A DNA stretch of 30,928 nt from Acetobacteraceae bacterium (GTDB lineage: Bacteria; Pseudomonadota; Alphaproteobacteria; Acetobacterales; Acetobacteraceae). Shown here one piece after another: positions 6,695-30,472 of this stretch. The stretch lies in NCBI GenBank assembly GCA_035486135.1, contig DATHNI010000007.1, forward strand, positions 1 through 30,928, read 5' to 3'. The notes below the pieces were generated by a model. It was not told where the DNA came from, ran no database searches, and was given only the letters and a program-made list of their open reading frames with translations. Position 1 is the stretch's first letter. Each line of letters opens with the position of its first letter. The position numbers and the translations under genes are program-made.

Positions 6695-6824
6695 CTGTCA
6701 TTGCGAGGCGCAAAGCGCCGAAGCGATCCCCCGCCTGACGAGAGCTCCTCCGCTCGTCAGGCAGGAGATTGCTTCGGGGCGCTTTGCACCTCGCAATGAC
6801 GCTGGAATTCGCGGCATTTCCAGT
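6695..6824. repeat. Family-5 long-hairpin element, copy 1. A ~45-bp-arm palindrome (TGTCATTGCGAGGCGCAAAGCGCCGAAGCGATCCCCCGCCTGACGAG / CTCGTCAGGCAGGAGATTGCTTCGGGGCGCTTTGCACCTCGCAATGACG) is followed by a conserved GAATTCGCGGCATTTCCAGTC tail.
   Basis: Read directly. A second copy at 27231-27347 has the same tail. Confidence 0.75.
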
Positions 6825-7061
6825 CAGCGTAAAGTCGCTCCAAATGACTTCGTCCGCAGGCCACGACAACGTCCCTGCCCTGCTCAGGGAGGCGCCGCCG
6901 GTTCGTGGCGCGCGGGCTCCGCTGGCCGCGCTGGAGGTGCGAATGATCGAGATTTTCCGCCGCGAGCCGTTCCCTCGGGTTGTCCGGCACGACGCAGCGG
7001 CGCTGCAACGGGAGAAGACGCAGCCGAATACAGGGGCTTCAGTATGCCCCATCGTCAGCCA

Positions 7062-12863: not shown

Positions 12864-14207
12864 ATGAAGACCGTTCCCAGCGGCACGACAAACCAAAGAA
12901 TACCCCCCCTCCCCTTGAGGGAGGGGGCTGGGGGGAGGGATTGCGTGCGGCACGAACCCCTCCCCCCAGCCCCCTCCCTCAAGGGGAGGGGGAGTCTCTT
13001 GGCGCTTGGCCCAATCCTCACCCGCCGGTCCGCCCTCCTTGGGCTGACCGCCGCCTTCACGCTGGGCCGCGCCTCGCTGGCTGTTGCCGCGGCGCCGGGG
13101 GATAAGCGCCTGGTCGTGGTGATCCTGCGCGGCGCGCTGGACGGCATGGCGGCGGTAGTGCCGTACGGCGATCCGGGGCTGACGCCCCTGCGCGGCGAGT
13201 TGGTGCCGGCCGGCCCCGGCCAGGCGAACGGCTTGCTCGATCTCGGCGGGTTCTACGGCCTGCACCCGTCGCTGGCGAACCTCCACACCATGTTCAAGGC
13301 CGGCGAGCTGTTGCCGGTGCACGCCGTCGTCGGCCCGACCCGGGTGCGCAGCCATTTCGAGGCGCAGGACTGCCTGGAGAGCGGCGCCGACCACCGCATG
13401 ACCAGTGGCTGGCTGAACCGCGCCGTCGCCGCGCTGCCCAACGCCGCGCATGACCGGCCGGAGGGCGACGCCCTGGCGATCGGCGTCTCCGTGCCGCTGC
13501 TGCTGCGCGGACCGGCGACAGTAGGAAGCTGGGCGCCGCACGGCGTCATGGCGCCCCCGGCCGATCTCTATACGCAGATCGCCGCGCTGAGCAGCACCGA
13601 CCGGATCATCGGCCCGGCGGTCGCCGAGGGCCTGCAGGAGCGCGGCTTCACCGCCACCGTGATCGCTACCGACGACGATCCGGCACAGCCAGCCAAGGAC
13701 CGCTACGCCTTCCCGGCGCTGGCGCGGGCCGCCGGCGAGATGCTGCGCGCACCGGACGGGCCGCGCGTCGCGGCACTGGAGATCGGCGGCTGGGACACCC
13801 ACCAGGCGCAGGTGCCCCGGCTGGGCGGTGTGCTGAAACAGCTCGACGCCGGCTTGGCGGGCCTGAAGGACGGCCTGGGCCCGGCGTGGAGCCAAACCGC
13901 CGTGCTGGTCATGACCGAATTCGGCCGGACGGCCCGGGTGAACGGCACCAAGGGCACCGACCACGGTACCGCCACCGTGGCGTTCGTGCTGGGCGGCGCT
14001 GTGTTCGGTGGGCGTGTGGCCGGACAATGGCCCGGCCTGGGCCCGGGCAAGCTATACGAGAACCGCGACCTCGCGCCGACCACCGATCTGCGCTCGGTCG
14101 CCAAAGGATTGCTGGCCGGGCACCTGGGCGTCCCCGGCGGCGCGCTGACCGCCGTGTTCCCCGGCAGCGAAGCAGCGCAACCAACCCGCGGACTGCTCCG
14201 CACGTAG
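12864..14207 (+). CDS. DUF1501-family protein (sulfatase / alkaline-phosphatase-like fold) with a TAT signal. An alternative start at TTG(12999) lies just after the embedded REP-2 element.
   Basis: The TAT-like signal LTRRSALLGLTAAFTLGRASLAVAAA is followed by MTEFGRTARVNGTKGTDHGTATVAFVLGG, typical of DUF1501. ATG(12864) lies 3 nt after the DUF1800 stop, but nt 12903-12994 of that reading frame is a REP-2 palindrome translated as PPLPLREGAGGRDCVRHEPLPPAPSLKGRGS. Confidence 0.75.
   Translation: MKTVPSGTTNQRIPPLPLREGAGGRDCVRHEPLPPAPSLKGRGSLLALGPILTRRSALLGLTAAFTLGRASLAVAAAPGDKRLVVVILRGALDGMAAVVPYGDPGLTPLRGELVPAGPGQANGLLDLGGFYGLHPSLANLHTMFKAGELLPVHAVVGPTRVRSHFEAQDCLESGADHRMTSGWLNRAVAALPNAAHDRPEGDALAIGVSVPLLLRGPATVGSWAPHGVMAPPADLYTQIAALSSTDRIIGPAVAEGLQERGFTATVIATDDDPAQPAKDRYAFPALARAAGEMLRAPDGPRVAALEIGGWDTHQAQVPRLGGVLKQLDAGLAGLKDGLGPAWSQTAVLVMTEFGRTARVNGTKGTDHGTATVAFVLGGAVFGGRVAGQWPGLGPGKLYENRDLAPTTDLRSVAKGLLAGHLGVPGGALTAVFPGSEAAQPTRGLLRT
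12903..12994. repeat. REP-2 GC-rich palindromic element, copy A (CCCCCCTCCCCTTGAGGGAGGGGGCTGGGGGGAGGG ... CCCCTCCCCCCAGCCCCCTCCCTCAAGGGGAGGGGGAG). Each arm is itself a hairpin with a CTTGA/TCAAG loop, and it carries canonical G4 motifs on both strands.
   Basis: Read directly: GGGAGGGGGCTGGGGGGAGGG contains four G-tracts with 1-2 nt loops. Copy B is at 27109-27214 and a fragment at ~15303-15318. Confidence 0.85.
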
Positions 14208-16180: not shown

Positions 16181-18979
16181 ATGGCCGACATGCCCACCGA
16201 CCCTGTCGCCGTGCTGGCCCAGGACCTGCTGGAGCTGACCGCGCACCTGGGCGCTCGCGGCGACCAGGATCCGTTCGGCAATCCCGTGCTGCTGGTGGCG
16301 CTGGCGATCAGCCGGCGGATGGATGCCGGCGGCCTCGACGACGCGGCCATCGACGGGCTGATCCGCCACCTGCGCGACGCAGCCTTCGCCGATCGCGCCC
16401 ACCGCCTGGCCGCCTATGTCGGCGGGGTGAACATGGCAGCGAACCAGGCCGTGCTGCACGGCCTCGCCCAACACCTGCTGCGGCCCGACCCGAACGACAG
16501 CCCGGTGCGCTGGGCGGAATACCGAGCCCTGGTGGAACGCCCGCGCTTCGCCGCCGTATTCACCGCGCATCCCACCTTCGCCCTGCCGTATCCCGTCGGA
16601 AAGGCCCTTGCCGAGGCCGCCTGCGGCCGAGCCTCGCCCGGCTTTGCCTCACACCGCCCGCCGCCCATCACCCTGGCCGAGGAATTCGAGCAAGCCGGAG
16701 ACGCGATCGCCCGCGGCCGTGACGCGATCGACCATTTCAACGCGGCATTGCTGTCCGTCGCCCGGTCCGCCTGGCCGGATCGCTGGACCGAGCTGAATCC
16801 GCGCCCCGTCATCCTGTCCACCTGGGTCGGCTACGACACCGACGGACGCACCGATATCGGCTGGTGGGACACCCTGCGGCTGCGGCTGGACATGAAGCAG
16901 CGCCAGCTCGCCCGGCTGCACTCCCAGCTCGCCGGCCTGGCCGTGCCCGTCCCGCTGCTGCATCGCGTCACCGAGGCGATGGACGCCGTCGCGGAGCAAC
17001 TTGCCGCCTGTCCCAACGGCCAGGACCCGCAGCGCGTCTCTGAGTTCGCGCATGCCCTGGTCGGGCGCCGGGACGCGGCGATGACCTCGCCGGAACCGCT
17101 GCTGCCGCTGTTCCGCGACGCGATCGAGGCGGCCCCCAACGACGCGACAAGGCAGGATTTGTGCGTGGCGCGCGCCGGGCTGGTGTCGCACGGCCTGGCG
17201 CTGGCGCACACCCACACGCGGTTGAACGCGGCACAGATCCATAACGTGGTGCGGCAGCGGCTGGGCATCGTCGATCCGCCGGAAGACCCCGCGCATCGCC
17301 GCGCGCTGTTCTCGGCGATCAACACCGCGCTCGACACAGTGCAGCCGGTGCCGGTGGATTTCGGCGCGCTGATCGCCGAGCAAGCGTCGGCGGCACGGCT
17401 GATGATGACGGTGGCGCAGATCCTGAAGCACGTGGATGGCTCCGCCCCGGTGCGCTTCCTGATCGCCGAGACCGAAACCGGCTACACATTGCTCGCCGCA
17501 CTGTGGCTGGCGAAGCTGTTCGGCATCGCCGACCGCATCGAGATCTCCCCGCTGTTCGAGACGGCGGAGGCGCTGGACCAGGGCGCAACGGTGCTGGAGG
17601 AAGCGCTGCGCAGCCCGCACTACCGGGCGTATCTGCGCGACACCGGGAAGCTGGCGCTGCAGTTCGGCTATTCGGATTCCGGCCGCTATGTGGGGCAGCT
17701 TGCCGCCAGCTACCTGGTGGAGCGACTGCGCCTGAAGATCGCCGCCATGCTGGAACGCCACAACATCAGCGGCGTCGAAGTGATCCTGTTCGACACGCAT
17801 GGCGAGAGCATCGGCCGCGGCGCGCATCCGGGCTCGCTGGCGGACCGGCTGAAATACCTGTCGCCGACCGCCTCGCGCCAGGCGCTGTTCCGCGCCGGTC
17901 TGGCGGTGCGCGAGGAAAGCGCGTTCCAGGGCCTCGACGGGTATTTGCTGTTCGGCACGCCGGAGTTGGCTCTGGCCACGATCACCCGCATCGCGGAACA
18001 AACCTATCATCCGGCGGCGGGGCCGATCGAGGACCCGGTCTATGCCGATCCGGATTTCGCCGCCGACTTCTTCGCCACCGTCCGCGCCGGCATGGAGGCA
18101 CTGGTCGATGACGTCGGCTATGGCTCATTGTTGGGCGCGTTCGGTCCGGCGCTGATCGATCGCACCGGGTCGCGTCCGTCGGCACGGCAATCGGACGGCA
18201 TGACCGGTGCGGCGCGCATCCGCCACCCACGCGAGCTCCGCGCCATTCCGAACAATGCGATCCTCCAGCAACTCGGCTGGTGCGCCAACACGCTGCAAGG
18301 GATCGGCGCGGCGGCATCGCGCCATCCGGAAACTTTCGCCGAGATGCATGCGAAGAGCAGACGGTTCCATCGGGCGATGGAACTGGCGACGCACGGACTG
18401 GCGCATTCGGATATCGACGTGCTGCGCGCGGTGATCGCGACGCTCGATCCCGGCACCTGGCTGGACCGCGCCGCGCATACCGAGCGGGTTGGGCGGCGCG
18501 AGGCGCTGGTGTCGGTGGCGCGCGCGCTGGAGCGGCTGGATATCTGGGCGGCGGCGCAGTCGATGTTCCGTCGCATCCAGGCGGACCACCTGGCGCTGCG
18601 CGTCGCGTGGCCGGATGCGCCGCGCATGGCGACGCGCGAGGTGCTGCTGCATGCGCTGCGGCTGGCTCTGGTGCATCGCATCTGGCTGCTGTCCACCGAC
18701 ATCTCCGATTTCTCGCCACGCCACGGCGTGACGCGTCCGGTGCTGGAGGCAGCGATCCTGCGGCTGGATATCGAGGCGGTGCTGGACCTGCTGGCGGAAA
18801 TCTTCCCCGCCGCGCCGGACCCCGCGGCGGAGTGCGACTACGCCGAACCGGCCCCGCCGCGCGGCTCCGGCGCTTATGTGCGCGAGCACGCGGAAATCTT
18901 CGCGCCGATGCGGGCGCTGTTCGGCATGGTGCGGGAGATCGCCACGGCGGTCACGCACGAGGTGGGAGCGTTCGGGTAG
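16181..18979 (+). CDS. Phosphoenolpyruvate carboxylase family protein, highly divergent
   Basis: Ordered PEPC-like motifs, compared with E. coli Ppc from memory: VFTAHPTF (VLTAHPTE), LSTWVGYDTDGRTD (FTSWMGGDRDGNP), ISPLFETAEAL (VAPLFETLDDL), LQFGYSDSGRYVGQLAASY (MIGYSDSAKDAGVMAASW), FDTHGESIGRGAHPGS (FHGRGGSIGRGGAP), LRAIPNN (LRAIPW), and a C-terminal Gly (..GAFG versus ..NTG). The motif order and spacing resemble the canonical ~880-930-aa enzyme. Confidence 0.65.
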   Translation: MADMPTDPVAVLAQDLLELTAHLGARGDQDPFGNPVLLVALAISRRMDAGGLDDAAIDGLIRHLRDAAFADRAHRLAAYVGGVNMAANQAVLHGLAQHLLRPDPNDSPVRWAEYRALVERPRFAAVFTAHPTFALPYPVGKALAEAACGRASPGFASHRPPPITLAEEFEQAGDAIARGRDAIDHFNAALLSVARSAWPDRWTELNPRPVILSTWVGYDTDGRTDIGWWDTLRLRLDMKQRQLARLHSQLAGLAVPVPLLHRVTEAMDAVAEQLAACPNGQDPQRVSEFAHALVGRRDAAMTSPEPLLPLFRDAIEAAPNDATRQDLCVARAGLVSHGLALAHTHTRLNAAQIHNVVRQRLGIVDPPEDPAHRRALFSAINTALDTVQPVPVDFGALIAEQASAARLMMTVAQILKHVDGSAPVRFLIAETETGYTLLAALWLAKLFGIADRIEISPLFETAEALDQGATVLEEALRSPHYRAYLRDTGKLALQFGYSDSGRYVGQLAASYLVERLRLKIAAMLERHNISGVEVILFDTHGESIGRGAHPGSLADRLKYLSPTASRQALFRAGLAVREESAFQGLDGYLLFGTPELALATITRIAEQTYHPAAGPIEDPVYADPDFAADFFATVRAGMEALVDDVGYGSLLGAFGPALIDRTGSRPSARQSDGMTGAARIRHPRELRAIPNNAILQQLGWCANTLQGIGAAASRHPETFAEMHAKSRRFHRAMELATHGLAHSDIDVLRAVIATLDPGTWLDRAAHTERVGRREALVSVARALERLDIWAAAQSMFRRIQADHLALRVAWPDAPRMATREVLLHALRLALVHRIWLLSTDISDFSPRHGVTRPVLEAAILRLDIEAVLDLLAEIFPAAPDPAAECDYAEPAPPRGSGAYVREHAEIFAPMRALFGMVREIATAVTHEVGAFG

Positions 18980-22138: not shown

Positions 22139-22645
22139 TCAGCTCACCCGATGTTGCTCGTGGGTGCGCCGAGAACGGGGTGTAGGACGTCGTCTTCCCG
22201 CCGCATAAGCGGGCGCTCCATCGTCCCACGGATTAAGCCACGCGACGCCACTGTGTTGCACATCTCGCACGTTACGCGTGACCAGGCAGAGGTCATGCTC
22301 GATCGCTGTGGCAGCCAGCATTGTGTCGATCACCAGCGGTGCGTGACCGGTCTGTCGCTTCACGGTACCGCTGATCGCACCCCAGCGCCGCACGATCGCA
22401 CCGGTCAACGGCAGGACCCGATCGGCGAAGCGTGCCTCCAGAGCGGCAATGCCAGCCGCGATGTGCAGCCGAAGCTGACTGTCGGAGGGCGTATTGTGCA
22501 GCCCTTTGTCATACCCACCAGGCGTCAGGATACCGAGGAACAGGGACTCCTCGTCCTGGGCTTCCGCCCACGCCTGAACGCGTGCGGTGGGCTGTGGCCT
22601 GGCTAGTTCGGCAACGAGATTGGTATCCAGCAGCCAGCCGTTCAC
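22139..22645 (-). CDS. vapC: PIN-domain toxin VapC (type II TA), with an unusual ~30-aa C-terminal tail
   Basis: MNGWLLDTNLVAEL...LVTRNVRDVQHSGVAWLNPW is a VapC hallmark. After NPW, where VapC normally ends, the frame continues DDGAPAYAAGRRRPTPRSRRTHEQHRVS. There is an ATGA overlap with vapB. Confidence 0.8.
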   Translation of the reverse strand: MNGWLLDTNLVAELARPQPTARVQAWAEAQDEESLFLGILTPGGYDKGLHNTPSDSQLRLHIAAGIAALEARFADRVLPLTGAIVRRWGAISGTVKRQTGHAPLVIDTMLAATAIEHDLCLVTRNVRDVQHSGVAWLNPWDDGAPAYAAGRRRPTPRSRRTHEQHRVS

Positions 22646-22956
22646 AGCGAGACGTCACGGCCGGTGTCACGTTCGCGCGTCGTGTCGAGGCTGCCCAGGT
22701 GCAAGCCTTGAAGGAAGGCGACGAGATTTTGGCGCGGTTTAATGGGAGGCATAAGCCTTTCCAGCGCTTCGACGGAGATGACCACGACGGCATCCTTGCC
22801 ACGTACTGTGACGCGCTGTGGCCCTTCGAAACGAGCAAGGCGAACGATTTCGCTGAATCGGGCCTTGGCATCTTCGAGTTTCCACTTGGGATGGAGCGCG
22901 GTGGCGCGGCGGCGGCGCGGAACGGCCGTTGGCTGGGCAGACGTGATCCGTGGCAT
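22642..22956 (-). CDS. vapB: VapB / Phd-YefM-type antitoxin
   Basis: WKLEDAKARFSEIVRLARFEGPQRVTVRGKDAVVVISVEALERL matches the antitoxin N-terminal domain. It is translationally coupled to vapC. The start is uncertain because there is an N-terminal ~20-aa extension. Confidence 0.7.
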   Translation of the reverse strand: MPRITSAQPTAVPRRRRATALHPKWKLEDAKARFSEIVRLARFEGPQRVTVRGKDAVVVISVEALERLMPPIKPRQNLVAFLQGLHLGSLDTTRERDTGRDVSL

Positions 22957-22972
22957 GTTCGAAAGCCTTGAT

Positions 22973-22988
22973 CTGACCAGCTGACCAG
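22973..22988. promoter_or_regulatory. Tandem CTGACCAG-CTGACCAG immediately upstream of vapB; candidate autoregulatory operator
   Basis: Read directly, 17-32 nt upstream of the vapB start on the coding strand. Confidence 0.25.
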
Positions 22989-23143
22989 TAGCAGATCGAC
23001 GGCACGGACGCCGCGGCTTCGCGCGGTTCCTGGGAGCCGCAATGCCGGAGCGGTGGTACCTGCCCCATTACCCTGACCCAGCTGCCAGTGCATAACCTAG
23101 GCAGACTGTGTGAAATGCCATTTGTCCGTTCGTGGTCCCGCAC

Positions 23144-23725
23144 CTACGCCTTTGGGACGCTCACCCCGATCATGTCACCCTCGCGCACGATCGATGCCAG
23201 CCTGGCCTCATCCCATCCTTCCGTCCCGGCCGGGCGCAGCGGCAGCACCATCCAGCGATAATCCGCGGTCGAATCGACCACGCGCAGCCTGACGCTATCG
23301 GGCACCACCGTGCCCCACTCCTCCGCCAGCAACCCACGCGGATCGCGCACCGCACGCGCGCGATATCCTGCCGACTTGTACCAGAACGGCGGATAGCCCA
23401 GCACCGCGCGCGGATAGCAACTGCACAGCGTGCAGACCACAAGGTGATGCACCTCCGCGCTGTTCTCCAGCACACCCAGCGGAGGCATGCCGCGCATCGG
23501 AATGCCGAGCTCCTCGGCCGCCTTCGACCCGTCCTCCAGCAGCCGGGCACGATACGCCGGATCGGTCCACGCCTTCGCCACCATGCGCGCGCCCTGACCC
23601 GGACTGGCGCTGTCGGTGCTGGCGATGCGTTCGGCGATCTCCGCCGGCGACGCGATGCCCTTCGCCGCCAGCACGCTGCGCAACGCAGTCAGCAGCTTTT
23701 GGCCGTCGATTTCCGCGAGGGTCAT
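23144..23725 (-). CDS. nthA: Nitrile hydratase alpha subunit, cobalt-type
   Basis: VVCTLCSCYP metal-binding motif (CTLCSCY is the Co-type form; Fe-type is CSLCSCT). Flanking blocks AKAWTDPAYRARLLEDG, PPFWYKSAGYRARAVRDPRGLL and RWMVLPLRPAGTEGWDEARLASIVREGDMIGV are colinear with Co-NHase alpha subunits as I recall them. There is an ATGA overlap with the upstream ORF, and an alternative ATG lies at 23740. Confidence 0.9.
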   Translation of the reverse strand: MTLAEIDGQKLLTALRSVLAAKGIASPAEIAERIASTDSASPGQGARMVAKAWTDPAYRARLLEDGSKAAEELGIPMRGMPPLGVLENSAEVHHLVVCTLCSCYPRAVLGYPPFWYKSAGYRARAVRDPRGLLAEEWGTVVPDSVRLRVVDSTADYRWMVLPLRPAGTEGWDEARLASIVREGDMIGVSVPKA

Positions 23726-24003
23726 AGTGGTTCCAACCAATGTTCGAAGATTTCCACCAGCAACTCGTCACCCGCGCGGCCTTCGTGCCAGACCTCGGGC
23801 TGGTCGAAGCGCACATGATACAACGCGCGGGTCGGCGCAGGGCGTGCGAAGGCCAGGTCTTCCGGATTGGGAAAGGCGCCAAGCCGCCGCACCACCGTGC
23901 CCTGCATGCCGCGCACGTAGTGCGGCGTGCGGACATGCGCCGGGCCGCGCGTCTCCGGCCAGTCGTTCTTCACCCGCACGATGGCGCCGGGTTCGAACAT
24001 CAT
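23722..24003 (-). CDS. Nitrile hydratase beta subunit, C-terminal (SH3-like) domain only, as a separate polypeptide
   Basis: MMFEPGAIVRVKNDWPETRGPAHVRTPHYVRGMQGTVVRRLGAF...ALYHVRFDQPEVWHEGRAGDELLVEIFEHWLEP aligns with the C-terminal half of NHase beta (..FKPGDRVR...GHTRxPRYVRGKTGTVV...LYTVRF..ELWG..VDLWEPYLE). There are 4-nt ATGA overlaps on both sides. Confidence 0.8.
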   Translation of the reverse strand: MMFEPGAIVRVKNDWPETRGPAHVRTPHYVRGMQGTVVRRLGAFPNPEDLAFARPAPTRALYHVRFDQPEVWHEGRAGDELLVEIFEHWLEPL

Positions 24004-24308
24004 TCCGCCTCCAGCGCGGAGCGCAGCTCAGCCTCGGTGATGACGCCCTTCTGCAGCAGGATGTCGGTGATCGAGCGGATCCAACGGCGGTAGTAGCTCA
24101 GCCGGTGGTACTCGGCTTCGGGAATGGATTCGATGCCTCGCCGCAACTCGTCCACCGTCATGATCTGCTTCGCGCCGAGGATGCCGCGGATCGCGTCCAC
24201 TTGCTTGTCAAAGTCGGTGAGGCCGTGCGGCGCGGTGTCCACCGCCTCGCACATGAATTTCGCGGCGCCGCCCAGATCGTGGTGCGCGCGGGGCGTGTCC
24301 TTGTCCAT
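24000..24308 (-). CDS. Nitrile hydratase beta subunit, N-terminal helical domain only, as a separate polypeptide
   Basis: MDKDTPRAHHDLGG...EAEYHRLSYYRRWIRSITDILLQKGVITEAEL aligns with the NHase beta N-terminus (MNGVHDLGG...PAEYLxxSYYExWL..LLxEKGxIT). It ends exactly at the domain boundary; the ~40-50-aa inter-domain linker of ordinary beta subunits is absent. The longer tracked start at 24440 overlaps the upstream hydrolase gene. Confidence 0.8.
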   Translation of the reverse strand: MDKDTPRAHHDLGGAAKFMCEAVDTAPHGLTDFDKQVDAIRGILGAKQIMTVDELRRGIESIPEAEYHRLSYYRRWIRSITDILLQKGVITEAELRSALEAE

Positions 24309-24375
24309 GACGACGACGATAGCGCAGCCGGCGGGCGGTGCCAAAGCCCGCGACCTGCCGCCGGCATACCCAGCG

Positions 24376-25221
24376 TCAGCGCGAACCCGCCCGCGGTCCC
24401 GGCAACGGCGGTGTGTGCGCGGGGCGGGCGCGCGAGGCACCGGGGGGTGGGAATGCGGCCTGCACGAAGCGCACGACGGTATCGAGCGTTGCCTGCTTCG
24501 CCTCCAGATGCGGGGCGTGACGTGCCCCCGGCATCACCAGCGTTTCCAGCGGCACCCGCGCGTGCTGCTGCAGGACGTCCAACTGCGCCGGGGTACCATA
24601 CGGATCATCGGCGCCTTGCAGCGCGAGGATCGGCACGTCGATGCCCGCAACCTCCGCGGTGATGTCGAACGAACGAAACCCCGGATGCAGCCACGAATCG
24701 TTCCATCCCCGGAATGCCACATCCACATTCCGATGATAGCGTGCCAGCCGCTCGCGCAACGCGCCCTGTTCATACTCGGCGCGGATCTGGCGGATGCTGG
24801 CAATGTTCAGGTCTTCCACGAAGAAATGCGCGGCGATCAGCACGACGCCGCGCAGCCGCCGGTCGCGCGCGTCGCCCGCATAGACCGCGGCGATCGAGCC
24901 GCCGTCGGAGTGGCCGACCAGGATCGCCTCGCGAATGCCGGCGGCGTCCAGCACGCGCGGCAGCACGTCGCGCGCTTCGTCCTGCATGTAGGTCAACGGC
25001 CAGGGCAGCGGCTTCGAGTCAGACTGGCCGTAACCGAACCGCGAGTACGCGAACACGCCGCAGCCGGTGGCTGCCGCGAGCAGATCGGGAACGTCGCGCC
25101 ATAACGCGATGCAGCCCAGGCCTTCATGCAGCAGGACAAGCGTGGGCGCTTCGGATGGAGGCGGGCCCCACCAGGCGGTTTCGAGCTGGCGATCATCAAG
25201 AAGCATGGCACCGGGGTGCAT
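24376..25221 (-). CDS. Alpha/beta-fold hydrolase
   Basis: The nucleophile elbow GHSDGG (GxSxG) follows the LVLLHEGLG oxyanion region, giving the ~280-aa alpha/beta hydrolase layout. It lies between the CoA ligase and the NHase genes on the same strand, with short gaps. Confidence 0.8.
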   Translation of the reverse strand: MHPGAMLLDDRQLETAWWGPPPSEAPTLVLLHEGLGCIALWRDVPDLLAAATGCGVFAYSRFGYGQSDSKPLPWPLTYMQDEARDVLPRVLDAAGIREAILVGHSDGGSIAAVYAGDARDRRLRGVVLIAAHFFVEDLNIASIRQIRAEYEQGALRERLARYHRNVDVAFRGWNDSWLHPGFRSFDITAEVAGIDVPILALQGADDPYGTPAQLDVLQQHARVPLETLVMPGARHAPHLEAKQATLDTVVRFVQAAFPPPGASRARPAHTPPLPGPRAGSR

Positions 25222-25230
25222 GCGGCACCC

Positions 25231-26895
25231 TCACCCGCCGCTGCGCGGCGCCCCCCGGGTCGAGGGACCGGGGGCATGCCTATCCTGAAGCGAGAGGTTT
25301 TCTTCGCGCAGGCGGAAGCGCTGGATCTTGCCGGTGGCGGTCTTCGGCAAGCCATCGACGAACTCGATCCAGCGCGGATATTTCCACACGCCGATCCGTT
25401 CCTTCACATGCGCCTTCAAAAGTTCCTTCACCGTATCCGCGTCCTGTTGCTTCGCCGCCTCCTGCAGGATCACGAACGCCCTGGGCTTGGTCAGCCCGTC
25501 GCGATCCGTCGCACCCACCACCGCGGCCTCCAGCACCGCCGGGTGCGAGACCAAAGCTTCCTCGACCTCGAACGGCGAGACCCAGACGCCGCTCACCTTC
25601 AGCATCTCGTCGCTGCGGCCGCAGTAGCGGTAGTAGCCCTCGGCGTCGCGCGTGTAGGTGTCGCCGGTATGAGTCCATTCGCCGCGGAAGGTGCGGCGGG
25701 TCTTGTCCCGCTGGTGCCAATAGCCGTCGGCCGCCGACGGGCCGCGCACCACCAGTTCGCCCACCTCGCCATGCGGCACCGGGCGGCCATGCTCGTCCAG
25801 GACATGCGCCTCGTAGCCAGGCACCGGCTTGCCTGACGTGCCGTAGCGAATATCGTCGGGCCGGTTCGAAACAAAGATGTGCAGCATCTCGGTCGAGCCG
25901 ATCCCGTCCAGGATGTGCACGCCCACCATGTTGAACCAGCGCTGGCCCACCGCCTCCGGCAACGCCTCGCCGGCGGAGATGCAGCGGCGCAGGCGGTCCG
26001 ACCCGGCCTTGGGGCCGATCCGCGGATACGCCAGCAGCGCGGCGTACAGCGTCGGCACGCCGCCGAAAATCGAGGGGTTGTGGCTCTGCATCACCCCTAG
26101 CACCGCGTCCGGGGTCGGCCGGTCGGGCAGCAGCACGGCGGACGCGCCGACCGACATCGGGAAGGTCAGGCTGTTGCCCAGGCCATAGGCGTGGAACGCC
26201 TTGGCGGCGGAGAACATCAGGTCGTCACGTCGGATGCCCAGCACCTGCGCGCCGTAGGTATCCGCGGTGTGGCGCAGGCTGGCGTGGACATGGCGCACGC
26301 CCTTCGGCGCGCCGGTCGAGCCGGAGGAATACAACCACAACGCGATTTCATCCGGCGAGGCGGGCGCCGTTGGCGTGTCCGCGTCGCCGGTGGCGAGGAA
26401 GTCGGTCAGGCTGATCGTACGCAAATCCCCCTGCTCAGGCCCGGAGCCAGACTCAGGCGGCGCCGGCGTCGTGCCGTCCGGGTGGGCAACGATGATGCGG
26501 CGCAGCGCCGGCAGGCTGTGCAGCACCGGCAGCAGCGGCGCGAGCAATGGGGCCGAGATGACGATGGCCTCGGCGCGGCTGTCGGCCAGGATGTAGCCGG
26601 CCACCTCGTGCGTCAGCAGCGTATTGATCGGGACGGGCACGACGCCGGCCCGCAAGGCGCCCCAGAACGCGAGGGGGAAATCCACGGTGTCGAGCAACAG
26701 CAGCGCGATGCGCCGTTCGCGGCCGATGCCGGCGGCGCCCAGCGCACCGGCGAAGCGGTGGGTATCGGCTGCCAGTCCCGCGTAGGTCAGCGTGCGCCAC
26801 GGGTCGAGGAAGGCCGTCGCGTCGCCGCGCCCCTCGCGCAGGTGGCGATCGAGGAACCAATCGACCGCGTTGCCGTCCACCGCCTCAGCCGCCAT
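25231..26895 (-). CDS. Benzoate-CoA ligase family AMP-dependent synthetase (aromatic acid-CoA ligase)
   Basis: LYSSGSTGAPKGV AMP-binding motif, YGTSGKP and TGD motifs, and a C-terminal PKTATGKIQR. The N-terminus NAVDWFLDRHLREGRGDATAFLD resembles benzoate/4-hydroxybenzoate-CoA ligase N-termini. There is a 10-nt gap to the hydrolase gene. Confidence 0.9.
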   Translation of the reverse strand: MAAEAVDGNAVDWFLDRHLREGRGDATAFLDPWRTLTYAGLAADTHRFAGALGAAGIGRERRIALLLLDTVDFPLAFWGALRAGVVPVPINTLLTHEVAGYILADSRAEAIVISAPLLAPLLPVLHSLPALRRIIVAHPDGTTPAPPESGSGPEQGDLRTISLTDFLATGDADTPTAPASPDEIALWLYSSGSTGAPKGVRHVHASLRHTADTYGAQVLGIRRDDLMFSAAKAFHAYGLGNSLTFPMSVGASAVLLPDRPTPDAVLGVMQSHNPSIFGGVPTLYAALLAYPRIGPKAGSDRLRRCISAGEALPEAVGQRWFNMVGVHILDGIGSTEMLHIFVSNRPDDIRYGTSGKPVPGYEAHVLDEHGRPVPHGEVGELVVRGPSAADGYWHQRDKTRRTFRGEWTHTGDTYTRDAEGYYRYCGRSDEMLKVSGVWVSPFEVEEALVSHPAVLEAAVVGATDRDGLTKPRAFVILQEAAKQQDADTVKELLKAHVKERIGVWKYPRWIEFVDGLPKTATGKIQRFRLREENLSLQDRHAPGPSTRGAPRSGG

Positions 26896-26936
26896 TGCTG
26901 CAAGGTCTCCGTTGTCTGGGAGTTCGGAGGCGCATG

Positions 26937-26980
26937 TTGCACCCTCACCCTACCCTCTCCCGCTTACGCGGGAGAAGACA
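26937..26980. repeat. REP-1 fragment (CACCCTCACCC + CCTCTCCCGCTTACGCGGGAGAAG hairpin)
   Basis: Matches the terminal hairpin and arm of the 2235-2385 element. It lies in the leader of the CoA-ligase/NHase operon. Confidence 0.6.
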
Positions 26981-27108
26981 ACCTCTATAGCCGCTCAGAG
27001 CGCTTTCACCACGACCGGAATCGTCAGCCCGCTGTCATCGCGAGTTGACCACCAGCCGCGGGGCCGACCCGCCCTGAGGGAAACTGCGAGGCCGTCGTGC
27101 GAAGGACA

Positions 27109-27214
27109 CTCCCCCTCCCCTTGAGGGAGGGGGTTGGGGGAGGGGTGCGAACCGCAACGGCCGGCGGCTGTACGAACCCCTCCCCCCAACCCCCTCCCTC
27201 AAGGGGAGGGGGAG
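27109..27214. repeat. REP-2 GC-rich palindromic / G4-motif element, copy B
   Basis: CTCCCCCTCCCCTTGAGGGAGGGGGTTGGGGGAGGGG ... ACCCCTCCCCCCAACCCCCTCCCTCAAGGGGAGGGGGAG is about 90% identical to copy A in its arms. Confidence 0.85.
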
Positions 27215-27230
27215 CAGCTTGTTTCTCGTT

Positions 27231-27347
27231 AGGCGCGCTGCGCCGAGGCGATCCCCCGCCGGACCAGCCGAGGAACGTTCGTCAGACGGGGGATTGCTTC
27301 GGCGCAGCGCGCCTCGCAATGACAGTAGCATTCGCGGCATTTCCAGT
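27231..27347. repeat. Family-5 long-hairpin element, copy 2 (left arm truncated), with the conserved CATTCGCGGCATTTCCAGTC tail
   Basis: AGGCGCGCTGCGCCGAGGCGATCCCCCG ... CGGGGGATTGCTTCGGCGCAGCGCGCCTCGCAATGACA palindrome. The tail matches that at 6800-6824. Confidence 0.7.
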
Positions 27348-27361
27348 CGGGGCAAAACCGC

Positions 27362-28594
27362 TCAATGCGCGGCCGGAGCAGTGGGCGCGGCCGCGCCCGA
27401 CCGCAGCAGCGTGCCGAGCAAGCCGCCGAGATCGGGCGGCAGGCCGACGATCGTGGAGGGAAGCCGCCCGTCGCTCTTGTGGCCGAACGAACGCAGCGCG
27501 TCCGCCGCGGCCAGCGCCTGGATGGTCGAGGCATACGGCGCCAGCTCTGCCGCGATCGCCTGGTCCTGCGAGGCGATGTAGCGCCGGTTGACCGCATCCT
27601 GCACCACCGGGTCGAAGGTGAACGTGTCGGCCCAGCCGATGAAATCCAGCGTGATGCCGACCGAGGCGAAGTAGTCGGCCGCCGCCTTGCCGACCGCATC
27701 CATGATCTGGTTCGCTTCCTCGTTCGCCTTGTCGAAGCTGCGGCTGGCGATTTCGTTGCACACCAGCGTCTGGACCTTCTTGCGTCCGACGTCGTCCATC
27801 ACATCGGACAGCTTGCGGCTGAAGAACACCGAGTTGAAAATGACCTTCGGATCGGTGCGGTCGCCAACCGGCGGCAGCACGCCGAACCGGTAGAGGTATT
27901 TCGCCGCGTTCGGTTCCAGCACCGAAGCGCCGATCGACACGCCGACGGATATGTTGAGCCCCTCCTTGCTCTGGCAGGGAAACGATTCGTTGCGGGTGGA
28001 CGTGCCGCGCTCGCGCGCTTCCACCCATTCACGGCTGAACGGCGTGCGATCGACGATGATCAGCCGGCCCGCCGGAACATAGAAGTCGAAAAAGCTGCCG
28101 GAGCCTTGCAGCTTGGTGTGGGGAACGATGAAGCGCTTCACCGCGATCTTGTTGGCTTGCAGGTACGCCTCGGAATCGAATTGCGCCTGGTTGTCCTTGT
28201 TGGCGCCGGCGTCCGGAATCCAGAACGCGGATTCGTTCGGCAGGATGGTGTAGGCCTCGGTGTAGTCGGTCTTGTCGTAGTAGGCCTGGGCCTGCGGCGC
28301 GGCCAGCAGCACGCCAAACACGATTGCCGCGGCGCCCGAAACCCACCACTGCCGCAGGGGCCGCCACCAGATCGCCACGACGACGGCCAGCAGGACCACG
28401 GCCGGGATGCCGAGATTGCCGAACAGCCGGATGCCGATCATCGAGGTGACGTAGGACGCGTCGGTATTGGCGAATTGCTGGCCGGCCACGTCAGCGGACG
28501 CAATCGTCGCAACCGGATGCAGCAGGAAGTTGATCCAGCCATACAGCACCACGGCGGCGGCTGTGGCGATGGCACGGCCCAGGATACGGTTCAC
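27362..28594 (-). CDS. Membrane protein with three N-terminal TM helices and a possible SPFH/band-7-like domain
   Basis: The N-terminal hydrophobic segments are followed by a ~250-aa domain with weak SPFH-like periodicity (ISVGVSIGASVLEPNAAKYLYRFG ... VQDAVNRRYIASQDQAIAAELAPYA). The family assignment is tentative. Confidence 0.45.
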   Translation of the reverse strand: MNRILGRAIATAAAVVLYGWINFLLHPVATIASADVAGQQFANTDASYVTSMIGIRLFGNLGIPAVVLLAVVVAIWWRPLRQWWVSGAAAIVFGVLLAAPQAQAYYDKTDYTEAYTILPNESAFWIPDAGANKDNQAQFDSEAYLQANKIAVKRFIVPHTKLQGSGSFFDFYVPAGRLIIVDRTPFSREWVEARERGTSTRNESFPCQSKEGLNISVGVSIGASVLEPNAAKYLYRFGVLPPVGDRTDPKVIFNSVFFSRKLSDVMDDVGRKKVQTLVCNEIASRSFDKANEEANQIMDAVGKAAADYFASVGITLDFIGWADTFTFDPVVQDAVNRRYIASQDQAIAAELAPYASTIQALAAADALRSFGHKSDGRLPSTIVGLPPDLGGLLGTLLRSGAAAPTAPAAH

Positions 28595-29784: not shown

Positions 29785-29902
29785 CTGGTTCCTCCCCTTC
29801 GTCGTCAGGAGGGCCAGTGTCGCCGGATGGGTGGGAAACGCAAGGTGTGGTGGCACACCGGGGGCGCTGGCATGCAAGTCCTGCAAGCCCTATATTCGCC
29901 AC

Positions 29903-30115
29903 ATGAGCGCATCGCACCGCGATCCCCTGCACAGGGCCGAGACCGACGCCGACCGACAAAACCGTCTCGCCCGTGAGGCGGAGATGATCGCCGAAGCACG
30001 CGCACAGGTTGCCCGTGGCGAGGTCGTCGACTTCGAGGATGTCGAAGCCTGGATCGACAGTTGGGATACGCCGCATGAGAAACCGAGGCCACTGCCCCGC
30101 CCGCGATCGAGCTGA
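29903..30115 (+). CDS. parD: ParD-like ribbon-helix-helix antitoxin
   Basis: 70 aa; QNRLAREAEMIAEARAQVARGEVVDFEDVEAWIDSW is a typical ParD/CC2985-type antitoxin C-terminal half. It lies directly upstream of a ParE/RelE toxin gene. Confidence 0.6.
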   Translation: MSASHRDPLHRAETDADRQNRLAREAEMIAEARAQVARGEVVDFEDVEAWIDSWDTPHEKPRPLPRPRSS

Positions 30116-30163
30116 GTCAAGACCGCCTGGAGTCCCCTCCTGGCGGCATGGCCGGGGGACAGG

Positions 30164-30472
30164 GTGGCCAGGAAACTCCTGCTCTCCGACAAAGCAATCG
30201 ATGACCTGAGCGCCGTCCGCGTTTGGTACGGACAGCCAGGCGCCGGACGCGTCGCGAAGCGGCGGGCACAGGCGATCGCCGCTGCCATTCGGCGCCTGCG
30301 GCAGCATCCGTGTCGCTACGCCCGCGGCGATCATCCCGGAACCAGGCAAATGGTGATCGAACGCCACGTGGTGATCTACGAGGTTCACCCCGACACCGGC
30401 CGCGATGCCACGGCGGGTGATGTTCTGGTGTTGCGCGTGTTTGGACCGGGACAGCTACGCGAGGTCCTCTAG
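30164..30472 (+). CDS. parE: ParE/RelE-family toxin
   Basis: LSDKAIDDLSAVRVWYGQPGAG ... RYARGDHPGTRQMVIERHVVIYEVHPDTGRDATAGDVLVLRVFGPGQLREVL resembles the ParE fold pattern (..IxYRV.. ..VxILRVxHgxxdl). It has a GTG start. Confidence 0.75.
   Translation: MARKLLLSDKAIDDLSAVRVWYGQPGAGRVAKRRAQAIAAAIRRLRQHPCRYARGDHPGTRQMVIERHVVIYEVHPDTGRDATAGDVLVLRVFGPGQLREVL

What the first reader, a model, noticed from the sequence alone, without database searches (positions are those of the whole stretch)
23144..26895. Three-subunit (split-beta) cobalt-type nitrile hydratase fused into an operon with a benzoate-CoA-ligase-family enzyme and an alpha/beta hydrolase
Five co-directional, tightly spaced minus-strand genes: benzoate-CoA ligase family (554 aa), alpha/beta hydrolase (GHSDGG), NHase beta N-domain (102 aa), NHase beta C-domain (93 aa), and NHase alpha (CTLCSCY, Co-type).

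The split beta is not a frameshifted pseudogene:
- the N-domain ORF stops exactly at the domain boundary;
- the C-domain ORF has its own ATG;
- both junctions are ATGA overlaps, indicating translational coupling;
- the ~40-50-aa linker of ordinary beta subunits is missing.

This three-polypeptide architecture is what I recall for toyocamycin nitrile hydratase (ToyJKL) and, analogously, for thiocyanate hydrolase. Here, however, it sits with an aromatic-acid-CoA ligase and a non-amidase hydrolase, and no activator/metallochaperone gene (P14K/NhlE or P47K type) is present. The leader (26896-27361) is filled with three different REP-type elements.

A plausible role is a nitrile -> amide -> acid -> acyl-CoA route for an aromatic or heteroaromatic nitrile, with the alpha/beta hydrolase standing in for the usual amidase. 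This gene combination is not one I recognise as described.
Basis: partly seen in the sequence, partly recalled or inferred. Interest (0 to 1): 0.85.

Follow-up and report, generated by a model that had tools for sequence, protein, structure and literature searches.

The report
Three-subunit nitrile hydratase beside box-operon remnant
The split-beta, cobalt-type nitrile hydratase is real and conserved, but it belongs to an already described three-subunit class, and a lineage-specific rearrangement, not a shared pathway, placed it beside the benzoate-CoA ligase and hydrolase.

Summary
All five minus-strand ORFs exist as described. They are a benzoate-CoA-ligase-family gene, an alpha/beta hydrolase, NHase beta-N (102 aa), NHase beta-C (93 aa) and a Co-type NHase alpha (CTLCSCY). 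Both NHase junctions are ATGA overlaps.

The split beta is not a pseudogene. It is split in 87 of 89 related loci, the catalytic residues are invariant or nearly so, and dN/dS is about 0.1-0.2.

This architecture is already known: beta-N, beta-C, alpha, with no activator. It was characterised in Streptomyces canus (AnhD/AnhE/AnhA) and is related to ToyJKL. It also appears in RefSeq plasmids of Streptomyces and Agrobacterium.

The proposed five-gene nitrile-to-acyl-CoA operon is not supported:
- None of 80 related Acetobacteraceae genome loci has the ligase or hydrolase next to the NHase.
- In relatives, ligase and hydrolase are followed by boxC and boxB, the aerobic benzoyl-CoA pathway.
- In this species the box block breaks off inside the 3' end of the hydrolase gene. 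NHase-block homology resumes 45 nt upstream of beta-N.
- That retained stretch holds a conserved -10 element placed for a leaderless transcript.

Verdict: a new member of a known kind, with an accidental neighbourhood.

The parts
23144..23725 (-). NHase alpha subunit (193 aa, 20.8 kDa), Co-type, metal site C98-T-L-C-S-C103-Y
   Evidence: PF02979 at 241 bits. Best solved relatives are Co-type NHase alpha chains, E=2.5e-53. CTLCSCYP is invariant in 84 distinct orthologues. ATGA overlap with beta-C.
23722..24003 (-). NHase beta C-terminal-domain subunit (93 aa, 10.8 kDa), with the H23-x-R25-x-P-x-Y-x-R-G motif
   Evidence: PF02211 at 65 bits; matches positions 138-225 of TIGR03888. Aligns to residues 123-210 of the Fe-type beta chain, including GHIR. 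The motif is invariant across 83 sequences.
24000..24308 (-). NHase beta N-terminal-domain subunit (102 aa, 11.5 kDa), with HDLGG, DELR56RGIE and SYY
   Evidence: PF21006 at 60 bits; matches positions 4-94 of TIGR03888. Aligned to solved beta chains. 2022 homologues, the best 120 almost all about 102 aa.
24316..24344 (-). Promoter-like element of the NHase triad: -35 TTGGCA (24344-24339), a 17-nt spacer, and -10 TATCGT (24321-24316) ending 7 nt before the beta-N ATG. No Shine-Dalgarno sequence, so a leaderless transcript is probable.
   Evidence: It is the only sigma-70-like match in 22900-27500. A TAnnnT hexamer ends 6-8 nt before the ATG in 57 of 67 distinct orthologous upstream regions.
24354..24458 (-). 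Rearrangement junction: 105 nt with no match to either the box block or the NHase block of the sister lineage. It encodes the new 27-aa C-terminal tail of the hydrolase.
   Evidence: Homology to the box block ends at 24459 and homology to the NHase block starts at 24353. The protein alignment diverges after ...RFVQ.
24376..25221 (-). Alpha/beta hydrolase (281 aa; GHSDGG). It is the orthologue of the hydrolase that lies between the benzoate-CoA ligase and boxC in relatives, with a replaced C-terminus.
   Evidence: Abhydrolase_1 and Abhydrolase_6. 67-84% identical to the box-cluster hydrolases. Within-species dN/dS is 0-0.22.
25231..26895 (-). Benzoate-CoA ligase family enzyme (554 aa), the first gene of the former box operon
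   Evidence: TIGR02262 at 715 bits against a cutoff of 375. Orthologues at 79-88% identity are followed by the hydrolase, boxC and boxB.
26896..27361 (.). Leader of the ligase gene, carrying REP-like palindromic repeats (27109-27214 and 27231-27314)
   Evidence: Inverted repeats of 37 nt (95% complementary) and 34 nt (88% complementary). Other copies lie at 12905-12995 and 6695-6825. A 73% copy lies upstream of beta-N in the sister MAG.

Best explanation
Two unrelated units lie side by side.

**Unit 1: the NHase triad (23144-24308)**
- It is an autonomous three-gene cassette for a cobalt-type nitrile hydratase. Its beta subunit is made as two polypeptides.
- Alpha binds Co(III) through the CTLCSC claw.
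- Beta-N supplies the Arg (R56), Glu (E60) and Tyr-Tyr residues of the active-site shell.
- Beta-C supplies the His-x-Arg motif.
- By analogy with ScNHase, the three chains should assemble into an (alpha, beta-N, beta-C)2 enzyme that hydrates a nitrile to an amide.
- The enzyme should mature without a separate activator, with beta-N possibly acting as the subunit-swapping chaperone.
- The cassette appears to be transcribed from its own promoter as a leaderless mRNA. Beta-C and alpha are translationally coupled through 4-nt overlaps.

**Unit 2: ligase plus hydrolase (24376-26895)**
- It is the 5' part of an aerobic benzoyl-CoA (box) operon.
- In this species a deletion or rearrangement removed boxC, boxB and whatever followed.
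- The event replaced the last few codons of the hydrolase gene and brought the remnant to within 67 nt of the NHase cassette.
- Read-through from the box promoter into the NHase genes is possible but incidental.

**Shown and inferred**
- Shown: gene content, conservation, the breakpoint, and purifying selection.
- Inferred: assembly, maturation, the leaderless start, and the physiological substrate, which is unknown.
For: **Family membership and active-site residues**
- Pfam, NCBIfam and PDB matches support all three NHase subunits.
- The key residues are invariant or nearly so in 79-84 distinct orthologues.

**Split and overlaps conserved**
- 87 of 89 loci are split.
- The beta-N/beta-C overlap is 4 nt in 52 loci and 1 nt in 31. 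The beta-C/alpha overlap is 4 nt in 72.

**Standalone beta-N is widespread**
- 852 representative proteins matched, and about 124 of the best 150 are shorter than 180 aa.
- The same triad occurs in more distant loci and in RefSeq plasmids.
- The window's subunits are 38-44% (beta-N), 51-57% (beta-C) and 51-55% (alpha) identical to those triads.

**Published precedent**
- ScNHase has the order anhD-anhE-anhA and no activator. Its subunits are 10.4, 11.35 and 21.3 kDa, and AnhD acts as a chaperone.
- The window's subunits are 11.5, 10.8 and 20.8 kDa.

**Neighbourhood not conserved**
- 0 of 80 genome loci carry the ligase or hydrolase.
- Flanking genes vary and are mostly housekeeping.
- boxC and boxB follow ligase-hydrolase in relatives. 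They are absent from the window and from every NHase locus.

**Breakpoint**
- The breakpoint lies between 24459 and 24353, and the hydrolase has a new C-terminal tail.
- The sister MAG SPRUCE_423 has KPR-SPFH-ligase-hydrolase-boxC-boxB on one contig. It has beta-N, beta-C, alpha, YDMC and PEPC on another. Each contig shares the window's outer synteny.

**Own promoter**
- A promoter-like site lies in the retained 45 nt.
- A conserved -10 element is present in 57 of 67 upstream regions.

**Selection**
- dN/dS is 0.08-0.22 for the ligase, hydrolase and alpha, both within the species and against the sister lineage. Values for the short beta-N and beta-C genes are based on few substitutions and range from 0 to 0.39.
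Against: - No terminator-like site was found on the minus strand between the hydrolase and beta-N. The five genes may therefore be co-transcribed in this species.
- The ligase and hydrolase remain under purifying selection after the rearrangement. They still do something, and a new functional link cannot be excluded.
- AMP-binding ligase genes occur near three-subunit NHases in a few other lineages. They are divergent in L081-L084, L019 and L040, and one lies beside an amidase in L098. They are only about 30% identical to the window's ligase.
- Alpha scores just below the NCBIfam equivalog cutoff for NHase alpha (223 against 249.85). The exact substrate class is therefore open.
- The leaderless start is inferred from sequence alone.
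Confidence: 0.8

Rival explanations
1. The five genes form one operon for an aromatic nitrile route: nitrile to amide (NHase), amide to acid (the alpha/beta hydrolase acting as amidase), and acid to acyl-CoA (the ligase).
For: - The genes are co-directional and tightly spaced, with gaps of 9 and 67 nt.
- No terminator-like site lies between the hydrolase and beta-N.
- All five genes are under purifying selection within the species.
- The arrangement is stable across contigs from four samples.
- NHase occurs with an amidase and an AMP-ligase in one distant three-subunit locus (L098).
Against: - The adjacency is confined to one species-level clade; 0 of 80 related genomes share it.
- The ligase and hydrolase are orthologues of box-cluster genes that precede boxC and boxB.
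- The junction truncates and replaces the C-terminus of the hydrolase.
- The hydrolase has no amidase-family signature; its best weak matches are enol-lactonases.
- The NHase keeps its own conserved promoter element.
Confidence: 0.08
2. The triad is a thiocyanate hydrolase (SCNase) rather than a nitrile hydratase. SCNase also has three subunits encoded in the order beta-N-like, beta-C-like, alpha-like.
For: - The three-gene architecture is the same.
- TIGR03887 (SCNase gamma) matches alpha at 171.9 bits.
- Beta-C matches the SCNase alpha chain 2dd4_A at E=4e-6.
Against: - 171.9 bits is far below the TIGR03887 cutoff of 291.45.
- Alpha scores higher against Co-type NHase alpha chains (180-184 bits) than against SCNase gamma (144.7 bits).
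- Beta-N gave no SCNase beta match at E<=0.01.
- No sulfur-oxidation context was seen in the flanks.
Confidence: 0.04
3. The split beta is a recent frameshift, so the NHase locus is decaying or non-functional.
For: Two of 89 loci (L045 and L075) have beta-N and beta-C in one frame as a single ORF. The split or fused state can therefore flip with a small indel.
Against: - 87 of 89 loci are split, with conserved overlapping start and stop codons.
- The split extends to relatives that are only 38-46% identical, in Sphingomonadaceae, Agrobacterium and Streptomyces.
- dN/dS against the sister lineage is 0.11-0.18.
- Catalytic residues are invariant.
- The two 'fused' ORFs are 188 and 195 aa, about the sum of the two halves, so they cannot contain the roughly 43-residue canonical linker.
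Confidence: 0.02

Closest known systems
Streptomyces canus CGMCC 13662 nitrile hydratase ScNHase (AnhD/AnhE/AnhA), described in PMC7329996
   Same: - It has three polypeptides. AnhD and AnhE correspond to the N- and C-terminal halves of beta.
- The gene order is beta-N, beta-C, alpha.
- It is Co-type and has no activator gene.
- Subunit sizes are similar: 10.4, 11.35 and 21.3 kDa against 11.5, 10.8 and 20.8 kDa here.
- The residues reported as important there, AnhD-Glu56 and AnhE-His21, have plausible counterparts here: beta-N E60 and beta-C H23.
   Different: - The phylum differs: Actinomycetota against Acetobacteraceae.
- I could not obtain the ScNHase sequence. As a proxy, a Streptomyces plasmid triad is only 38%, 51% and 54% identical.
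- ScNHase was found through its activity on acetamiprid and thiacloprid. No substrate is known here.
Toyocamycin nitrile hydratase ToyJKL (Streptomyces rimosus)
   Same: - It is a three-subunit Co-type NHase with a split beta.
- The alpha subunit alone can build its own active site without an activator. This is Nelp et al. 2014 as summarised in PMC7329996.
- A review places ScNHase on one branch with the S. rimosus enzyme.
   Different: - ToyJKL sits in a deazapurine biosynthetic cluster and acts on toyocamycin. Here the cassette stands alone in changing, mostly housekeeping surroundings.
- From my own knowledge, not tested here, the ToyJKL gene order puts alpha first.
Thiocyanate hydrolase (Thiobacillus thioparus; PDB 2DD4)
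   Same: It is a three-subunit relative of Co-type NHase in which the beta equivalents are two chains, with the same CTLCSC-type metal site.
   Different: - Alpha is well below the SCNase gamma family cutoff.
- Alpha is closer to true NHase alpha chains.
- Beta-N does not match SCNase beta.
Aldoxime-nitrile pathway cluster of Pseudomonas chlororaphis B23 (Hashimoto et al. 2005, J Biol Chem 280:8660; seen only as an entry in the reference list of PMC5391958)
   Different: - From my own knowledge, that cluster has a two-subunit Fe-type NHase, a true amidase, an activator and an aldoxime dehydratase.
- The window has none of the last three.
- The window's ligase is a box-pathway benzoate-CoA ligase that arrived by rearrangement.
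Aerobic benzoyl-CoA (box) pathway cluster
   Same: - The ligase is a strong TIGR02262 member.
- Its orthologues, together with those of the hydrolase, directly precede boxC and boxB.
   Different: In the window the cluster is cut off after the hydrolase, and boxC and boxB are absent from the 30.9 kb.

Membership tests
Cobalt-type nitrile hydratase | The alpha subunit carries the metal claw C-(T/S)-L-C-S-C. Thr within the claw and Tyr after it mark the Co type. | tested here: met
   VCTLCSCY lies at alpha residues 97-104. It is invariant in 84 distinct orthologues.
Cobalt-type nitrile hydratase | Alpha matches curated NHase alpha models above threshold. | tested here: inconclusive
   Pfam PF02979 gives 241 bits against a cutoff of 27.2, which is met. 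The NCBIfam equivalog TIGR01323 gives 223 bits against a cutoff of 249.85, which is just missed.
Cobalt-type nitrile hydratase | The beta subunit supplies two Arg residues and a Tyr that contact the oxidised Cys ligands (betaArg52, betaTyr68 and betaArg157 in Pseudonocardia numbering, from my own knowledge). | tested here: met
   Beta-N has DELR56RGIE and SY72Y73. Beta-C has AH23VR25TPHYVRG. Both align to the corresponding motifs of solved beta chains and are nearly invariant or invariant.
Cobalt-type nitrile hydratase | Cobalt binding, oxidation of Cys to sulfinate and sulfenate, and nitrile-hydrating activity. | not testable with these tools
   This needs expression and biochemistry.
Three-subunit (split-beta) NHase, ScNHase/ToyJKL type | Beta is encoded as two separate polypeptides that match the N and C domains, with no linker. 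| tested here: met
   Profile positions 4-94 and 138-225 of 226 are matched. A stop codon and a separate start are present. 87 of 89 loci are split.
Three-subunit (split-beta) NHase, ScNHase/ToyJKL type | Gene order beta-N, beta-C, alpha, as in ScNHase anhD-anhE-anhA. | tested here: met
   Shown for the window and related loci. The published order is given in PMC7329996.
Three-subunit (split-beta) NHase, ScNHase/ToyJKL type | No dedicated activator gene (P14K/NhlE-like or P47K-like). | tested here: met
   None was found among the ORFs of the window that were scanned. No neighbour is conserved across the 80 loci.
Three-subunit (split-beta) NHase, ScNHase/ToyJKL type | Sequence clusters with characterised three-subunit enzymes rather than with two-subunit NHases. 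| tested here: inconclusive
   Beta-N scores 64-85 bits against standalone beta-N proteins of Streptomyces, Agrobacterium and a Sphingomonadaceae-like contig. It scores at most 37 bits against canonical beta chains. The ScNHase and ToyJKL sequences themselves were not available.
Thiocyanate hydrolase | The gamma subunit reaches the TIGR03887 equivalog threshold. | tested here: not met
   171.9 bits against a cutoff of 291.45.
Nitrile-amide-acid-acyl-CoA catabolic operon | An amidase gene is present, and the ligase is linked to the NHase across lineages. | tested here: not met
   No amidase is in the window. The ligase and hydrolase are absent from 80 of 80 related NHase loci.
Aerobic benzoyl-CoA (box) cluster (ligase and hydrolase) | A benzoate-CoA ligase family member lies adjacent to boxC and boxB. 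| tested here: inconclusive
   Ligase family membership is met (715 bits). Adjacency is met for orthologues but lost in the window.

The most novel reading that the evidence does not exclude
The split-beta NHase is a near-universal cassette of Acetobacteraceae, found in more than 540 species-representative genomes. It has its own leaderless promoter, no amidase partner, and no fixed catabolic neighbours. It may therefore act on an endogenous nitrile rather than on xenobiotic or plant nitriles. One candidate is the queuosine precursor preQ0, since queC lies in the ancestral synteny block and ToyJKL works on the same scaffold. Alternatively, in this one species the rearrangement may have created a new benzoate-regulated transcript that links aromatic-nitrile hydration to benzoate activation.
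Probability: 0.08. Interest if true: 0.55.

Novelty: new member of a known kind. Interest (0 to 1): 0.22.

Why it matters
- It corrects an attractive but wrong pathway inference. Tight spacing and a shared strand suggested an operon, but comparison with relatives shows a rearrangement scar inside the hydrolase gene.
- It shows that three-subunit, activator-free Co-type NHases are not Streptomyces curiosities. They form a large family that is often annotated only as 'hypothetical' or 'SH3-like domain-containing protein', and they are very widespread in soil and peat Acetobacteraceae.
- Cultured strains such as Rhodopila globiformis DSM 161 and Acidisoma sp. L85 carry the triad. They offer easy material for studying activator-independent cobalt insertion and for finding the natural substrate.
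- The apparently leaderless promoter is a small, testable extra.

Tried and rejected
- Rfam scan of the window and five loci for a riboswitch or leader RNA upstream of the NHase: no match at gathering threshold.
- Search for a conserved functional partner in 80 loci by ORF clustering. I found only variable, mostly housekeeping neighbours: an SH3_4 protein, ThiF/MoeB, a DsrE-like protein, QueC, Nth, an N-formylglutamate-amidohydrolase-like protein, TrpS and GlyQ. Some clades add acyl-CoA dehydrogenases or a gamma-glutamyltranspeptidase. No partner is general.
- Test of whether the NHase lies within 10 kb downstream of the box genes in the sister lineage, which would fit a simple short deletion: it does not. 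The deletion or rearrangement must be larger or more complex.
- Long representative hits that looked like beta-N/beta-C fusions (P0121, P0134, P0146): their sequences are chimeric or frameshifted metagenome calls, not real fusions.
- Cluster look-up to get taxa for distant beta-N homologues: almost no names were returned.
- Accession numbers or sequences for ScNHase in PMC7329996: none were given.
- Complex structure prediction was not attempted, because the tool folds only single chains from the window.

Full report
**1. The observation**

ORF listing confirms five co-directional minus-strand ORFs:
- 25231-26895, 554 aa
- 24376-25221, 281 aa
- 24000-24308, 102 aa from the ATG
- 23722-24003, 93 aa
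- 23144-23725, 193 aa from the ATG

All five show the codon-position GC pattern of real genes in this roughly 67% GC DNA.

Pfam and NCBIfam assign them as follows:
- Benzoate-CoA ligase family: TIGR02262, 715 bits against a cutoff of 375.
- Alpha/beta hydrolase: Abhydrolase_1 and Abhydrolase_6, with the GHSDGG motif.
- NHase_beta_N: PF21006.
- NHase_beta_C: PF02211.
- NHase_alpha: PF02979, 241 bits.

The sequence shows ATGA overlaps at both NHase junctions and VCTLCSCY in alpha. Beta-N covers positions 4-94 and beta-C covers positions 138-225 of the 226-position beta model. The linker of about 43 residues is therefore absent.

No activator, amidase or cobalt transporter was found among the ORFs of the window that were scanned. 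The rest of the window is housekeeping genes such as argG, EF-G and a PEPC-like gene, plus toxin-antitoxin modules.

The ligase leader holds two large palindromic repeats that recur elsewhere in the window.

**2. The split beta is old and selected**

- Beta-N has 2022 homologues at E<=1e-3, and the best 120 are almost all about 102 aa.
- A scan of one genome per species found more than 540 loci encoding a relative of alpha. The best 80 are all Acetobacteraceae or Rhodospirillales, including Rhodopila, Acidisoma, Acidisphaera and Rhodovastum.
- Most of these loci carry beta-N, beta-C and alpha in that order.
- Of the 89 loci where I could resolve all three genes, 87 are split. The beta-N stop and beta-C start overlap by 4 nt in 52 loci and by 1 nt in 31. 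The beta-C/alpha overlap is 4 nt in 72.
- Two loci (L045 and L075) have a single in-frame ORF of 195 and 188 aa, about the sum of the two halves. They are not canonical beta subunits.
- In 79-84 distinct orthologues, CTLCSCYP in alpha and the H-x-R-T-P-x-Y-x-R-G motif in beta-C are invariant. DELRRGIE and the Tyr-Tyr pair in beta-N are nearly so.
- These residues align with the second-shell Arg and Tyr residues of solved beta chains.
- dN/dS against the sister lineage is 0.11-0.18.

**3. The architecture reaches well beyond this family**

- An exhaustive search of 1.84 billion representatives gave 852 hits. About 124 of the best 150 are standalone proteins shorter than 180 aa.
- Distant members at 44-54% beta-N identity again sit in beta-N, beta-C, alpha triads.
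- RefSeq plasmids of Streptomyces sp. NBC_01176 and Agrobacterium rubi carry annotated triads. The first is followed by an aquaporin gene, a hypothetical gene and a HoxN cobalt transporter gene. The second is preceded by two amidase genes.
- The window's subunits are 38-44%, 51-57% and 51-55% identical to these triads.
- Beta-N matches them much better (64-85 bits) than it matches canonical beta chains (at most 37 bits).

**4. It is a described kind of enzyme**

- PMC7329996 describes ScNHase of Streptomyces canus.
- Its structural genes are in the order anhD-anhE-anhA. AnhD and AnhE are the N- and C-terminal parts of beta.
- There is no activator gene in that genome. Cobalt can be inserted without an activator, and AnhD acts as a metal and subunit-swapping chaperone.
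- The native form is AnhD2E2A2, with subunits of 10.41, 11.35 and 21.33 kDa.
- The window's subunits are 11.5, 10.8 and 20.8 kDa.
- The same paper cites the three-subunit ToyJKL. A 2026 review places ScNHase on a branch with the S. rimosus enzyme.
- Thiocyanate hydrolase shares the architecture but fails the family test. Alpha scores 171.9 bits against a cutoff of 291.45, and alpha is closer to NHase alpha chains than to SCNase gamma.

**5. The ligase and hydrolase are not partners of the NHase**

- None of the 80 genome loci, each with 8-kb flanks, has an orthologue of the window's ligase or hydrolase. Two loci have an unrelated ligase of about 30% identity on the other strand.
- Only contigs of the same species share the five-gene order. 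Their beta-N is identical and their ligase is 98.7-99.8% identical.
- The next relatives, at 93% beta-N identity, instead have a divergent 29%-identical AMP-ligase upstream and luciferase-like, MFS and GMC genes downstream.
- The ligase has many orthologues in Acetobacteraceae at 77-88% identity.
- In every ligase-orthologue locus I examined, the order is ligase, hydrolase (255-260 aa), a 547-551 aa crotonase-family gene, and a further gene of 482-487 aa in most loci.
- The last two genes are boxC (TIGR03222, 925 bits against 712) and boxB (TIGR03225, 858 bits against 499).
- boxC and boxB are absent from the window and from all NHase loci.

**6. The rearrangement scar**

- The sister MAG SPRUCE_423 carries KPR-SPFH-ligase-hydrolase-boxC-boxB on contig 221. 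It carries beta-N, beta-C, alpha, YDMC and PEPC on contig 213.
- Each contig shares one outer flank with the window.
- Nucleotide homology of the window to the box block runs from 26978 down to 24459. Homology to the NHase block starts at 24353.
- The 105 nt between them match neither block.
- The hydrolase alignment diverges after ...RFVQ. The last few native residues are replaced by a 27-residue tail. The catalytic Ser, Asp and His columns lie upstream of that point and are intact.
- In the sister lineage no NHase lies within 10 kb downstream of the ligase. The event was therefore larger than a few genes.
- A REP-like copy related to the one in the window's ligase leader lies just upstream of beta-N in the sister MAG. 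This hints at repeat-mediated recombination, which I did not test.

**7. Transcription**

- The only sigma-70-like match in 22900-27500 lies in the hydrolase/beta-N gap: TTGGCA, 17 nt, TATCGT, at 24344-24316. This is inside the 45 nt retained from the NHase block.
- Across 67 distinct orthologous upstream regions, 57 have a TAnnnT hexamer ending 6-8 nt before the beta-N ATG. T or A is enriched at -12, -11 and -7 in otherwise unconserved, GC-rich DNA.
- No Shine-Dalgarno sequence precedes beta-N.
- I infer that the triad has its own promoter and probably a leaderless transcript. Beta-C and alpha would then be translated by coupling.
- Because no terminator-like site separates the hydrolase from beta-N, read-through from the box promoter remains possible in this species.

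**8. Function**

- Shown: the triad has every sequence determinant of an active Co-type NHase and is under purifying selection.
- Inferred: it forms an (alpha, beta-N, beta-C)2 enzyme that hydrates a nitrile to an amide, and it matures without an activator as ScNHase does.
- The natural substrate is unknown.
- Neighbourhoods vary. The ancestral block appears to be QueC(-), ThiF, DsrE-like, SH3_4, then the NHase.
One locus has an amidase plus an AMP-ligase (L098), and the A. rubi plasmid has amidases. That chemistry is not what the window's neighbours encode.

**9. Verdict**

- The NHase is a new member of a known kind, and the 'fusion' with the box genes is a lineage-specific juxtaposition.
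- Interest is low to moderate.
- The useful points are the corrected inference, the breadth of the family, the availability of cultured carriers, and the putative leaderless promoter.

Noticed in passing
window 24316-24344 (minus strand); upstream of beta-N in loci L001-L100: A conserved -10-like TAnnnT hexamer ends 6-8 nt before the beta-N ATG in 57 of 67 distinct upstream regions. No Shine-Dalgarno sequence is present. This suggests the NHase triad is expressed as a leaderless mRNA across Acetobacteraceae.
   Followed up: partly
window 27109-27214, 27231-27314, 12905-12995, 6695-6825; L001:3-92: REP-like palindromic elements recur in the window. A 73%-identical copy lies just upstream of beta-N in the sister MAG, next to where the rearrangement breakpoint falls. 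It may have served as a recombination substrate.
   Followed up: partly
window 22139-22956 (minus strand): A Phd/YefM antitoxin plus PIN (VapC) toxin module lies directly downstream of alpha. It is present in the same-species contigs but gave no match in the sister MAG locus L001. Both flanks of the NHase triad therefore changed in this species.
   Followed up: partly
L045:7417-8004 and L075:7432-7998: Two related genomes have beta-N and beta-C joined in frame as one ORF of 195 and 188 aa, too short to contain the canonical linker. This is either a natural re-fusion through a small indel at the overlap or an assembly error.
   Followed up: no
protein P0126 (201 aa): This protein consists of two tandem NHase beta-N domains, each with HHD(L/M)GG and DxxRKNIE motifs. 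That arrangement matches neither the split nor the canonical beta.
   Followed up: no
L098:587-9832; L102:916-6259; L101:4974-8746: Other three-subunit NHase loci have informative partners. One contig, 46% identical in beta-N and clustering with a Sphingomonadaceae protein, has an amidase and an AMP-ligase divergently upstream, with PxpB/PxpC/PxpA-like and OYE genes downstream. An Agrobacterium rubi plasmid has two amidase genes upstream in the same orientation. A Streptomyces plasmid has aquaporin and HoxN cobalt-transporter genes downstream.
   Followed up: partly
loci L031, L048, L054, L063, L066, L068 (Rhodopila group), downstream of alpha: In about 8-10 Rhodopila loci, alpha is followed in the same orientation by two acyl-CoA dehydrogenase genes and a roughly 700-aa NDP-forming acyl-CoA synthetase gene. 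In 4-5 other loci a gamma-glutamyltranspeptidase gene follows alpha.
   Followed up: no
loci L025, L027, L039, L057, L060, L073, L080 and L097: An apparent ancestral synteny block is QueC (opposite strand), ThiF/MoeB, a DsrE-like gene, an SH3_4 protein gene, then beta-N, beta-C and alpha. QueC makes the nitrile preQ0, which is the scaffold on which ToyJKL acts.
   Followed up: no
window 16181-18979 (plus strand): A 932-aa ORF matches Pfam PEPcase only weakly and over one stretch (residues 378-551, 64 bits). That is unusual for a bacterial PEP carboxylase of this length.
   Followed up: no
window 29831-30472 (plus strand): A second toxin-antitoxin pair lies upstream of the ketopantoate-reductase-like gene: a 94-aa ORF followed by a ParE-family toxin.
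   Followed up: no
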